From: the human T2T-CHM13v2.0 reference genome, Homo sapiens
Assembly: GCF_009914755.1 (NCBI RefSeq)
Contig: NC_060931.1
Direction: 5' to 3' (one strand)
DNA: 64,000 nucleotides
The number at the start of each line of letters is the position of its first letter. The first letter of the stretch is position 1. Of this stretch, positions 17,447-19,020 are shown piece after piece. The position numbers and the translations under genes are program-made. Below the pieces are notes generated by a model. The model searched no databases, was not told the DNA's origin, and saw nothing but the letters and a program-made list of their open reading frames with translations.

Positions 17447-17539
17447 CAGTCATCCCTCAGTGTCTGTGGGGGATAGGTTCCAGATTCCCCACGGATACCA
17501 AAATCCATGGATGCTCAACTCATGTATGGCAAAGTATTT
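17447..17539 (+). mobile_element. MER2 (Tigger) 5' part
   Basis: CAGTCATCCCTCAGTGTCTGTGGGGGATAGGTTCCAG...GGATACCAAAATCCATGGATGCTCAA matches the MER2 start. Confidence 0.88.
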
Positions 17540-17773
17540 TTTTTTTCTTTTCTAAGTGCTGAGGTTTGAGAGAATTTCTCCAAGAAGCTCATAAATACAG
17601 CAGTGCCCAATCAGGTGGTCTACAGCTTCAGTAACACACCTGTGTATACCCAGGTAACTACTGGTCAGCTACAAATGGAAGTTCAGTAAAAGCAATTCCA
17701 CAAAGGACCAAATTTCTATCTAGGCCTCAGATCTGGCTATCTGGCTAGATCCTGGTTAAAACTGGATATGTGG

Positions 17774-17907
17774 AAAATTACAGTCAAACTATGAAACAGC
17801 CCCACCCTTATCTCCCTTCACTGACTCTCTTTTCGGACTCAGCTCGCCTGCACCCAGGTGAAATAAACATCCTTGTTGCTAAAGGAACAAAAACAAACAA
17901 CCAAAAA
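17774..17907 (+). mobile_element. Retroposed 3' end of a HERV-H/LTR7 transcript (U3 end, R, poly(A))
   Basis: CCCCACCCTTATCTCCCTTCACTGACTCTCTTTTCGGACTCAG...CACCCAGGTGAAATAAACATCCTTGTTGCT then A-rich tail; perfect 16-bp TSD AAAACTGGATATGTGG (17758-17773, 17908-17923) preceded by TT. Confidence 0.85.
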
Positions 17908-18020
17908 AAAACTGGATATGTGGCCTAGCCCTCCAGCAAACTCCTAAAATATTGCAAACCTCAGCGCCTATTAAGAAGTAACGACTGTTAGCAAGAATTG
18001 GGAGACAAGAAGTGACATTC

Positions 18021-18352
18021 GGCCAGGCGTGGTGGCTCACGCCTGTAATCCCAGCACTTTGGGAGGCCGAGGTGGGCAGATCATTTGAGATCAGGAGTTT
18101 GAGACCAGCCTGGCCAACATGGTGAAAGCCCATCTCTACTAAAAATACAAAAATTAGCTGGGCGTGGTGGCACACGCCTGTAGTCCCAGCTACTTGGGAG
18201 GCTGAGGCAGGAGAATTGCTTGAACCTGGGAGGTGGAGATTGCGGTGAGCCGAGATCGCACCATTACACTCCAGCCTGGGTGACAGAGCAAGACTCTTGT
18301 CTCAAGAAAAAAAAAAAAAAAAAAAAAAAGACAAACAAAACACAAAAAGCAA
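18021..18352 (+). mobile_element. AluS element
   Basis: Full Alu, long A tail, TSD AAGTGACATTC (18010-18020, 18353-18363). Confidence 0.96.
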
Positions 18353-18399
18353 AAGTGACATTCATCTTAACTTCCAAATAGCCTGGGTTAGTTTTATGC

Positions 18400-18492
18400 C
18401 TCTTTTAATGATGAAGAAACTGAGGGTCAGAGAGCCTTAAGTTTATAGGTAGAAAATGTCAGAGCCAGCCCCAAACTCAGGTCTCTGGCTTC
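18400..18492 (-). mobile_element. MIR fragment
   Basis: ttttaatgatgaagaaactgagggtcagagag...gtcagagccag...aactcaggtctctggcttcc resembles the MIR core. Confidence 0.65.
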
Positions 18493-18663
18493 CCTTCCCT
18501 AGTCATGTCTACCACCCTTCAAAAATTGAGCTTATGCTCTCAGCATCCCTGTGGTGGATAGTGGGCTGTAGGACCAAGGAAGGCTAGAAGAAGATGTTGG
18601 TCTACACACTTGAGTGGAGATGGTGAAGAGGGGACCTAGGCCCAGCAGTCAGGTACTTGCTTT

Positions 18664-18807
18664 TGTAACCACCCAATGAGTTCACCTTGCCCACTGCTTA
18701 GACAGAGCAGATTTCTCAAGACAAGGGAATTACAATAGAGAAAGAGTAATTCATGCAGAGCCGGCTGTGCAGGAGACTGGAGTTTATTACTACCCAAATC
18801 AGTCTCC
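18664..18807 (-). mobile_element. LTR8 (ERV1) 3' portion, R/U5
   Basis: Reverse complement GGAGACTGATTTGGGTAGTAATAAACTCC...GGGCAAGGTGAACTCATTGGGTGGTTACA matches the recalled LTR8 3' terminus. Confidence 0.8.
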
Positions 18808-19020
18808 TAAAATGGCATAGTATTTGCATATAACCCACACACGTCCTCCTGTCTACTTTAAACCATCTCTAGATTACTTATAATACCTAATGTGATGTAA
18901 ATGCTGTGTAAATAGTTGTTATAGTATATTGTTTAAGGAATAATGACAAGAAAAAAAGCCTGTACATGCTCAGTACAAATGCAGCCATCTGCAGAACTCA
19001 TGGATATGAAGGGCTGTCTA
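18808..19020 (+). mobile_element. MER2 (Tigger) 3' part
   Basis: TAAAATGGCATAGTATTTGCATATAACC...TCTCTAGATTACTTATAATACCTAA...GGATATGAAGGGCTGTCT continues MER2 where the 5' part stops. Confidence 0.9.

What the first reader, a model, noticed from the sequence alone, without database searches (positions are those of the whole stretch)
17526..18825. Apparent full-length retrocopy of an LTR8-promoted chimeric transcript, inserted into MER2
Seen: MER2 is split into 17447-17539 and 18808-19020. The insert is bounded by a 14-bp TSD with one mismatch (ATGGCAAAGTATTT / ATGGCATAGTATTT) and has poly-T at its left end, so it is a minus-strand poly(A) element. On the minus strand it starts with 144 nt of LTR8 R/U5, then runs through non-LTR DNA containing a MIR. 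Established: MIRs are much older than MER2 and could not have jumped into it, so this DNA was copied from elsewhere. Inference: in the LTR8 consensus as I recall it, the insert's first bases (GGAGACTG) lie ~25 nt after a TATA-like CTTAAAAA, i.e. near the expected TSS. This would be a fossil cDNA of a ~0.8 kb lncRNA driven by an LTR8 and expressed in the ancestral germline or early embryo. Standard repeat annotation would list it as unrelated fragments. Weak points: no AATAAA just upstream of the tail, and the inferred nick site (GC/AAAT) is not the ideal TT/AAAA.
Basis: partly seen in the sequence, partly recalled or inferred. Interest (0 to 1): 0.8.

Follow-up and report, generated by a model that had tools for sequence, protein, structure and literature searches.

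The report
Retrocopy of an LTR8-started RNA
An old DNA transposon in a PPP1R9A intron carries a LINE-1-made copy of a short RNA that began at the start site of an LTR8 retroviral promoter and ran into neighbouring DNA from chromosome 10, where that LTR8 is no longer found.

Summary
A 14-bp duplication (13 of 14 bases identical) brackets window 17540-18811, and a short T-run sits at the left end. In other copies of the host repeat the two flanks are contiguous, and the 14 bp occurs only once.

On the minus strand the insert has four parts:
- 4 unmatched bases;
- 144 nt matching the last 144 nt of a ~668-bp multi-copy LTR, consistent with LTR8;
- ~620 nt of unique DNA;
- an A7-10 tail.

Two younger insertions lie nested inside it, each with its own duplication.

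The LTR homology starts at GGAGACTG. In 7 of 9 LTR copies examined, that point lies 28-29 nt after a TATA-like box, which is where transcription should start.

The unique body has exactly one relative in the genome: chr10:103,333,521-103,334,464 (T2T), minus strand. The two are colinear with no introns removed, and 12% diverged. The chr10 sequence has no A-tail.

It does not. There is none at the junction, none in 200 kb upstream, and no third paralog.

My best reading is a LINE-1-made copy of an unspliced read-through RNA from an LTR8 that once sat at the chr10 site, on an allele or duplicate that has since been lost. It is a neat fossil of a known kind, with no sign of function.

The parts
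17447..17525 (.). Left part of the host repeat (MER2-type; name not tested)
   Evidence: Aligns colinearly to other genomic copies of the same repeat.
17526..17539 (.). Left copy of the 14-bp target-site duplication, ATGGCAAAGTATTT
   Evidence: (D17). The stretch occurs only once in intact copies L037 and L043.
17540..17546 (-). Poly(A) tail of the retrocopy, seen as T7 on the + strand (up to A10 if the TSD is shorter)
   Evidence: chr10 has no A-run at this point; its sequence continues ..GGAAAAG|GTGTTTCT.
17547..17773 (-). 3' third of the retrocopied RNA body
   Evidence: Single paralog at C10:103333521-103333671 and onward: 92% over 151 nt, 81% including two indels.
17774..17923 (+). Nested younger retrocopy: the end of another LTR family with AATAAA and an A-rich tail (17774-17907), plus the second copy of its 16-bp TSD AAAACTGGATATGTGG (17908-17923)
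   Evidence: D12. One search gave 1232 candidates, with the best 39 non-self hits at 93-97% identity. chr10 has the 16 bp only once.
17924..18020 (-). Middle part of the RNA body
   Evidence: Single paralog at C10:103333725-103333808, 88%.
18021..18363 (+). Nested Alu (18021-18352) plus the second copy of its TSD AAGTGACATTC (18353-18363; first copy at 18010-18020)
   Evidence: SRP/Alu-type Rfam hits at 18022-18304. chr10 lacks this Alu.
18364..18663 (-). 5' part of the RNA body, directly abutting the LTR end
   Evidence: Single paralog at C10:103334164-103334464, 83%. The homology starts at the first base after ..TTACA.
18664..18807 (-). 144 nt of LTR8-type LTR running from the predicted start site to the LTR's last base (R-U5), including its own AATAAA
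   Evidence: A published LTR8 primer matches this region of the family copies at 15-18 of 21 bases.
18808..18811 (-). 4 bases (TTTA on the minus strand) at the 5' junction that match neither the LTR copies nor the target
   Evidence: the copies have TCGG, TTGG, TCAG, GTGG or TCTG at this position.
18812..18825 (.). Right copy of the TSD, ATGGCATAGTATTT
18826..19020 (.). Right part of the host repeat
   Evidence: One search found 2368 candidates; the best 39 non-self hits are 83-90% identical.

Best explanation
This is a LINE-1-mediated retrocopy, originally about 785 bp, of an unspliced RNA of roughly 770 nt.

The RNA started at the transcription start site of an LTR8-type LTR. It read past the LTR's own AATAAA and through U5 to the last LTR base, then continued about 620 nt into the adjoining unique DNA. 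There it was polyadenylated at a site with no canonical signal.

LINE-1 nicked a MER2-type element in what is now a PPP1R9A intron. It reverse-transcribed the RNA to its 5' end and left a 14-bp target duplication.

The adjoining DNA is the sequence now at chr10:103,333,521-103,334,464 (T2T, minus strand). That locus looks like the empty site for the LTR8. The LTR8 that drove the RNA therefore sat on an allele, or a duplicate, of this locus that has not survived in the human genome.

Later, an Alu and a fragment of another LTR transcript inserted into the copy. The copy has no U3 and so no promoter of its own. It is most likely inert.

Shown directly: the insertion, its boundaries, the LTR homology and where it starts, the chr10 paralog, and the absence of an LTR8 there. 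Inferred: the start site (from motif spacing), the role of LINE-1, and the loss of the driving LTR8.
For: 1. **Insertion hallmarks.** The TSD matches 13 of 14 bases with chance expectation 0.06. There is an A-tail. The host repeat is contiguous in other copies, with the 14 bp present once.

2. **The LTR part ends at the family's common end.** The best 39 non-self LTR hits end at query 147-154. 7 of the 8 fetched copies end ..TTACA or ..TTACAA before unrelated flanks, and one ends ..TTACC. The copies share about 668 bp.

3. **The 5' end sits at the predicted start site.** The homology starts at GGAGACTG in 8 of 8 fetched copies. In 7 of 9 copies this is 28-29 nt after a CCTTAAAA-type box. The other two carry a deletion there. 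A CCAAT motif lies at -75 to -79 in 6 of 9. AATAAA follows about 20 nt inside. A random 5' truncation would land in an 8-nt window of a ~1290-nt RNA about 0.6% of the time (my arithmetic).

4. **The body has exactly one relative.** Each of the three body parts gave 2 candidates in the whole genome, namely itself and chr10. The chr10 match is colinear, starts at the first base after the LTR end, and stops where the A-tail begins. chr10 then continues with unrelated DNA and no A-run, so chr10 is genomic source-type DNA and not another retrocopy.

5. **The ages fit.** The LTR part's own branch is about 0.052. Half of the chr7-chr10 body distance is 0.06 (p = 0.121, 71 of 586 aligned bases). The copy was therefore made about when the LTR integrated. 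That is the period when an insertion can still be polymorphic.

6. **There is a precedent.** HERV-W processed pseudogenes begin with R-U5 and carry a poly(A) tail and 5-15-bp TSDs made by L1 (PMC5537654, passages).
Against: - **No extant source.** There is no LTR8 next to the chr10 homology or in 200 kb upstream. This was tested with the R-U5 query and with three full-length copies as queries. The chr10 5' flank is unique in the genome. The explanation therefore needs a lost allele or a lost duplicate, which cannot be shown here.
- **No poly(A) signal.** There is no AAUAAA or AUUAAA within 40 nt of the tail in either chr7 or chr10.
- **The nick site is atypical.** It reads GC/AAAT rather than TT/AAAA.
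- **Unmatched bases.** The 4 bases at the 5' junction match no LTR copy.
- **The start site is inferred only.** It rests on motif spacing, with no CAGE or RACE data.
- **Uneven divergence.** The first 150 nt of the body differ from chr10 by 19%, against 8-12% for the rest. This is unexplained.
- **Splice-like dinucleotides in chr10.** chr10 has AG just before the homology start and GT just after its end.
Confidence: 0.6

Rival explanations
1. Two-template chimera. LINE-1 reverse transcriptase copied a chr10-derived RNA to its 5' end, then switched to an LTR8-initiated RNA from some other locus and copied it to its cap. A trans-splicing event joining the two RNAs beforehand would give the same product.
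For: - It needs no LTR8 at chr10, which fits.
- Chimeric L1-made insertions formed by template switching are described in print (PMC4476161 and 10.1101/2025.02.02.635956; search listing and abstract starts only).
- The 5' end at the start site is expected under this model too.
Against: - The junction lies exactly at the last base of the LTR. A switch into an RNA at a random point would hit that base about 1 time in 600.
- I know of no natural RNA that ends at the U5 end. This is from established retrovirus biology and was not tested here.
- There is no microhomology beyond one or two A at the junction.
Confidence: 0.1
2. Spliced transcript. A distant LTR8 supplied a first exon ending exactly at the LTR end, using a GT in its flank as donor. 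That exon was spliced to an acceptor at the chr10 segment.
For: - chr10 has AG immediately before the homology start and GT immediately after its end.
- 33 LTR ends of this family in the genome are followed by GT.
Against: - None of the 33 lies on the chr10 minus strand above 103.33 Mb.
- There is no LTR8 in 200 kb upstream.
- The acceptor would be GAG| with a weak pyrimidine tract. My recollection is that a G at -3 is rare.
- If the GT at the 3' end were a used donor, a further exon should follow in the copy. Instead the A-tail follows.
- The one LTR-plus-GT copy sharing a rare variant with chr7 (chrX) is only 86% identical.
Confidence: 0.05
3. The LTR8 was a passenger and not the promoter. 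A longer RNA (host read-through, or a 3' transduction from an upstream L1 or SVA) ran through an LTR8 and its flank. The copy was then 5'-truncated by chance near the R start.
For: - 5' truncation is the rule for L1-made copies (PMC5537654, abstract and passages, and PMC2912911, abstract start only).
- The 4 unmatched bases at the 5' junction are the kind of filler seen at truncated junctions (recalled).
Against: - The truncation would have to land within a few bases of the predicted start site, about 0.6-1.2% by position (my arithmetic).
- This rival also needs the missing LTR8|chr10 junction, so it solves nothing that the main reading does not.
Confidence: 0.1

Closest known systems
HERV-W processed pseudogenes (L1-mobilised retroviral RNAs)
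   Same: Both start at R-U5 rather than U3, and both have a poly(A) tail and a TSD in the 5-15-bp range (PMC5537654, passages).
   Different: Here only R-U5 is retroviral and the rest is host flank. There is no internal proviral sequence and no U3-R at the 3' end. The LTR family is the LTR8/HUERS-P1 type and not LTR17. This is a single copy, not a family.
Ordinary processed (retro)pseudogenes and retrocopies of cellular RNAs
   Same: TSD, A-tail, a single parental locus elsewhere, and insertion into older DNA.
   Different: The parent RNA was non-coding and unspliced, and it was driven by an LTR. The promoter-bearing parent allele is missing from the present genome.
Chimeric retrogenes made by L1 template switching (U6-L1 type)
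   Same: A bipartite insert with one TSD pair and one tail.
   Different: In those chimeras the 5' part is a whole small RNA that ends at its natural 3' end (recalled; only abstract starts were seen). Here the 5' part ends at an LTR boundary, which is a DNA feature and not an RNA end.
LTR-initiated read-through or chimeric transcripts (LTRs as alternative promoters)
   Same: Transcription starts at the U3/R border and runs out of the LTR into host DNA. LTR8/HUERS-P1 copies are reported to contribute first exons in THOLE and Dp412e (PMC6862598 and PMC4644319, passages).
   Different: Those are living transcripts at extant loci. This is a DNA fossil of such an RNA.

Membership tests
L1-mediated retrocopy | Target-site duplication of about 7-20 bp flanking the insert | tested here: met
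   14 bp with 13 of 14 identical. These are the only two matches in the window (expected 0.06). The 14 bp is single in intact host-repeat copies.
L1-mediated retrocopy | 3' poly(A) tail not encoded at the source | tested here: met
   A7-10 lies next to the TSD. chr10 continues GTGTTTCT at that point. The tail is short.
L1-mediated retrocopy | Insertion at a TT/AAAA-like endonuclease site | tested here: not met
   The site reads GC/AAAT. This is a tolerated variant at best. By contrast, the nested 16-bp-TSD insertion sits at TT/AAAA.
L1-mediated retrocopy | A parental locus elsewhere, colinear with an RNA | tested here: met
   A single paralog at C10:103333521-103334464. No introns were removed, so the RNA origin rests on the tail, the TSD and the LTR start rather than on intron loss.
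LTR8 (LTR of HUERS-P1) | Sequence match to the LTR8 family model | not testable with these tools
   No repeat library is available. Indirect support: a multi-copy element of about 668 bp ending ..TTACA, against the 691 bp reported for an LTR8 (PMC6862598). That paper's LTR8 primer matches the R region of 8 of 8 copies at 15-18 of 21 bases. Its other primer matched none at up to 5 mismatches; the best was one copy at 6.
LTR-promoted transcript | 5' end at the U3/R border, about 25-32 nt after the TATA box | tested here: met
   The homology starts 28-29 nt after the CCTTAAAA-type box in 7 of 9 copies, and the other 2 have deletions there. This is motif spacing only, with no CAGE or RACE data.
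LTR-promoted transcript | An extant locus with the LTR abutting the transcribed flank | tested here: not met
   There is no LTR8 at the chr10 junction or in 200 kb upstream and no third paralog.
ERV processed pseudogene (HERV-W type) | R-U5 ... internal provirus ... U3-R-poly(A) | tested here: not met
   Only R-U5 is LTR-derived. The rest is single-copy host DNA.
Template-switch chimeric retrogene | The 5' part is a complete RNA ending at its natural 3' end | tested here: not met
   The junction is the LTR's DNA end. No RNA is known to end there (recalled).

The most novel reading that the evidence does not exclude
The chr7 insert is the only surviving record of an LTR8 integration at chr10q24 that was transcribed in the germline soon after it landed but never reached fixation. 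On this reading, a retrocopy has archived an extinct retroviral insertion allele, junction included. It would also show that LINE-1 mobilised RNAs started by LTR8/HUERS-P1. The HERV-W literature calls W the sole HERV group mobilised by L1 (PMC5537654). A nested LTR-end retrocopy 900 bp away points the same way for a second family.
Probability: 0.4. Interest if true: 0.5.

Novelty: new member of a known kind. Interest (0 to 1): 0.35.

Why it matters
The insert gives base-level, DNA-fossil evidence of where an LTR8 promoter started transcription in an ancestral primate germline or early embryo. It also shows that such read-through RNAs were substrates for LINE-1.

The missing LTR8 at the only parental locus makes this a possible example of a retrocopy outliving the allele that produced it. 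Primate genome alignments can test that directly.

It is a single, probably neutral insertion in an intron. No effect on PPP1R9A or PPP1R9A-AS1 is indicated.

Tried and rejected
- **LTR8 upstream on chr10.** I looked for an LTR8 that could have been spliced on. 200 kb (C10:103334465-103534464) gave nothing better than E = 0.077 over 20 nt with the R-U5 query. Three full-length copies used as queries gave only 22-26-nt scraps.
- **LTR ends followed by GT.** There are 33 genome-wide and none is suitably placed on chr10. The chrX copy sharing the rare CTCAT variant is only 86% identical, so it is nothing special.
- **A paralog of the chr10 5' flank next to an LTR8.** The flank hits only itself.
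- **chr10 as a second retrocopy.** Rejected, because it has no A-tail and the homology runs into unrelated DNA.
- **LTR8 inserting later at the retrocopy's 5' edge, followed by a deletion.** Rejected, because it needs two exact coincidences.
- **Rfam scan.** It returned only Alu/SRP-type and weak miRNA-like hits below the gathering thresholds.
- **Literature.**
  - 139 papers mention LTR8 or HUERS-P1. Of the 25 listed, none has a title about retrocopies.
  - 0 papers matched five phrasings of 'lncRNA retrocopies'.
  - 79 papers matched at least 2 of 'R-U5', 'processed pseudogene' and 'solo LTR'. The 15 listed concern HERV-W, HERV-K and similar groups, not LTR8.
  - The HERVarium preprint does not mention LTR8.
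  - These searches are not exhaustive, and I did not look at supplements.
- **Nested 17774-17907 piece.** I first took it for SVA or HERV-W from memory. One search shows pairs of hits 5.3-5.4 kb apart and 1232 candidates, which fits a HERV-H-type LTR better. The name remains a recollection.
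Full report
**What is in the sequence**

Window 17540-18811 is an insertion. It is bracketed by ATGGCAAAGTATTT (17526-17539) and ATGGCATAGTATTT (18812-18825). 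These are the only two matches to that 14-mer in the window at up to 1 mismatch. The chance expectation is 0.06, and none of 100 shuffles gave two matches (D17).

The DNA on either side belongs to one multi-copy repeat. The right flank gave 2368 candidates in the genome, and the best 39 non-self hits were 83-90% identical. I fetched 11 other copies and aligned both flanks to them.
- In two copies (L037, L043) the left flank aligns to its very last base and overlaps the right flank by exactly the 14 duplicated bases.
- In eight copies the left flank aligns colinearly but the local alignment stops short.
- In one copy (L044) the left flank does not match.

So the 14 bp is a true target-site duplication in a once-continuous element. 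I could not test it.

**Anatomy on the minus strand**

| Window coordinates | Content |
|---|---|
| 18811-18808 | 4 bases (TTTA) that match nothing |
| 18807-18664 | 144 nt of an LTR |
| 18663-18364 | Unique body, part A |
| 18363-18021 | A plus-strand Alu with its own TSD AAGTGACATTC (18010-18020 and 18353-18363) |
| 18020-17924 | Unique body, part B |
| 17923-17774 | A plus-strand fragment of another LTR family ending in AATAAA and an A-rich tail, with a perfect 16-bp TSD AAAACTGGATATGTGG |
| 17773-17547 | Unique body, part C |
| 17546-17540 | Seven A, then the TSD (which itself begins AAA) |

With the two nested insertions removed, the original insert was about 785 bp.

**The LTR part**

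The 144 nt match many genomic copies at 87-91% identity. There were 1777 candidates, 40 were scored, and one of those was the query itself. All alignments end at query position 147-154.

In 7 of the 8 copies I fetched, the family ends ..TTACA or ..TTACAA before unrelated flanks, and L008 ends ..TTACC. The copies share about 668 bp with each other. The chr7 piece is therefore the last 144 nt of the LTR, up to its final base.

The name LTR8 has only indirect support.
- A paper reports 691 bp for an LTR8 and names it the LTR of HUERS-P1 (PMC6862598, passages; Repbase table in PMC5753468, passages).
- That paper's LTR8 antisense primer matches the same R-region position in 8 of 8 copies at 15-18 of 21 bases. 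It matches the chr7 piece at 16 of 21.
- Its sense primer matched no copy at up to 5 mismatches; the best was L004 at 6.

**Where the LTR homology starts**

In 8 of 8 fetched copies the alignment to chr7 begins at GGAGACTG. I then looked upstream of that word in those 8 copies plus one chrX copy.
- A CCTTAAAA-type box begins 28-29 nt before it in 7 of 9 copies. The other two carry a deletion of about 15 nt there.
- A CCAAT motif lies at -75 to -79 in 6 of 9.
- An AATAAA lies about 20 nt inside the homology.

This is the standard layout of a retroviral U3/R border. A TATA-type box places the start about 30 nt downstream of its first T, which is established promoter knowledge. So the copy begins within about 3 nt of the predicted start.

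If the 5' end were a random truncation point on an RNA of about 1290 nt (LTR plus body), an 8-nt window would be hit about 0.6% of the time. That figure is my arithmetic. I found no CAGE or RACE data for LTR8 start sites in the papers I opened.

**Where the body came from**

Each of the three unique parts has exactly two candidates in the whole T2T genome: itself and one place on chr10.
- Part A matches C10:103334164-103334464 at 83%.
- Part B matches C10:103333725-103333808 at 88%.
- Part C matches C10:103333521-103333671 at 92%.

All three lie on the minus strand and are colinear.

The chr10 homology begins at the first base after the LTR's ..TTACA. It ends at ..GGAAAAG, where chr7 has ..AGAAAAG followed by the A-tail. 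chr10 then continues GTGTTTCT.. with no A-run. chr10 is therefore ordinary genomic DNA of the source type and not a sister retrocopy.

chr10 also carries each of the chr7 nested insertion sites in the empty state: the 16 bp and the Alu target each occur once. No introns are missing. The differences are small indels of 3, 3, 2, 8 and 17 nt extra in chr7 and 1, 2 and 5 nt extra in chr10. The 5 nt at the end and a 7-nt gap came from my own cut points.

Substitution divergence is 71 of 586 aligned bases (p = 0.121, JC 0.132). It is uneven: 19% in the first 150 nt next to the LTR and 8-12% further on. I have no explanation for this gradient.

**The missing LTR8**

It fails.
- The chr10 locus has no LTR8 at the junction.
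- 200 kb upstream gives nothing with the R-U5 query (best E = 0.077 over 20 nt). Three full-length LTR copies used as queries gave only 22-26-nt scraps.
- The 161 nt just upstream of the chr10 homology are unique in the genome. So there is no second copy of the locus whose 3' side might have been deleted.
- A pattern search for LTR ends of this family followed by GT, as possible splice donors, found 33 sites. None lies on the chr10 minus strand above 103.33 Mb.
- One chrX copy shares a rare variant with chr7 but is only 86% identical.

**How I read this**

The junction lies at the exact last base of the LTR. That boundary is made by retroviral integration into DNA, not by RNA processing. So the template RNA almost certainly came from a locus where an LTR8 was integrated directly next to AAAGCA... 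The present chr10 sequence, ..CTGGAG|AAAGCA.., looks like the unoccupied site.

The ages are consistent with this. The LTR part's own branch, estimated from pairwise distances only, is about 0.052. Half the chr7-chr10 body distance is about 0.06. The copy was therefore made at about the time the LTR integrated, within wide error.

An LTR insertion is polymorphic for a time of the order of the population size in generations. A rough neutral calculation of mine gives a few percent to about 20% for the chance that a retrocopy templated by a young LTR came from an allele that was later lost. That is small. It is still much larger than the chance that a template switch or a splice donor falls on the exact LTR end.

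I therefore favour an unfixed, or otherwise lost, LTR8-bearing allele or duplicate of the chr10 locus (confidence 0.6 for the whole statement).

The rivals are:
- an L1 template-switch or trans-splice chimera (0.1);
- cis-splicing from a distant LTR8 (0.05);
- a passenger LTR8 with chance truncation, which also covers an orphan transduction (0.1).

The AG before and the GT after the chr10 homology are the only hints for splicing. The acceptor would be a poor GAG with a weak pyrimidine tract, and a used donor at the 3' end should have brought a further exon. None is present.

**Mechanism**

The 14-bp TSD and the A-tail are LINE-1 hallmarks, as for the HERV-W processed pseudogenes (R-U5 start, poly(A), 5-15-bp TSD, TT/AAAA site; PMC5537654, passages).

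The nick site reads GC/AAAT, and there is no AAUAAA or AUUAAA within 40 nt of the tail in either chr7 or chr10.

The LTR's own AATAAA, about 25 nt from the start, was read through. This is usual for a promoter-proximal retroviral poly(A) signal (established knowledge, not tested here).

A heritable copy implies that the RNA and LINE-1 were both active in the germline or early embryo. That is an inference.

**Comparison and novelty**

This works like a processed pseudogene of an LTR-initiated read-through RNA. It is not a HERV-W-type ERV pseudogene, because it has no internal provirus and no 3' U3-R. It does not fit the template-switch chimeras either.

I found nothing in print on retrocopies of LTR8-started RNAs.
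- 139 papers mention LTR8 or HUERS-P1. I saw 25 listed and none is on this topic.
- No papers matched five phrasings of 'lncRNA retrocopies'.
- 79 papers matched at least 2 of three related terms, and 15 were listed.

These searches are not exhaustive, and I did not open supplements.

The HERV-W review calls W the sole HERV group mobilised by L1 (PMC5537654, abstract). This insert and the nested LTR-end fragment show that L1 also copied RNAs that start or end in other LTR families. These are not whole proviral RNAs, however.

I file it as a new member of a known kind, with interest 0.35. The point worth following up is the absent LTR8 at the only parental locus.

Noticed in passing
window 17774-17923: A second, younger L1-type retrocopy is nested in the first, in the opposite orientation. 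It is about 92 nt of the end of another LTR family (AATAAA, then an A-rich tail) with a perfect 16-bp TSD at a TT/AAAA site. The family gave 1232 candidates, and the best hits are 93-97% identical. Several hit pairs lie 5.3-5.4 kb apart, like the two LTRs of a short provirus. I recall this as HERV-H LTR7-like, but the name was not tested. The first 15 nt (17774-17788) match none of the listed hits.
   Followed up: partly
window 18010-18363 and L002 (C10:103333811-103334160): The chr7 copy and its chr10 paralog each acquired an Alu at almost the same spot, and the two target duplications overlap by about 9 aligned bases. The Alus are in opposite orientations. By my recollection of diagnostic bases they belong to different subfamilies (S-type on chr7, Y-type on chr10). 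This could be an independent double hit on a local hot spot or simply coincidence.
   Followed up: partly
L002, chr10 about 103334130-103334190: At the 5' junction of the chr10 Alu, about 31 bp (the target DNA plus the first bases of the Alu) is tandemly duplicated.
   Followed up: no
window 18514-18663 against chr10: The 150 nt of the body nearest the LTR differ from chr10 by 19%, against 8-12% for the remaining 440 nt or so. Only 2 of the 44 transitions are in a CpG context. This is unexplained.
   Followed up: no
L003 (C11:27778822 region), 3' flank of the LTR: The best-matching LTR copy is followed, after ..TTACAATT, by a sequence that I recall as resembling a decayed proline-tRNA primer-binding site. 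That would make it a 5' LTR of a HUERS-P1-type provirus. It was not tested.
   Followed up: no
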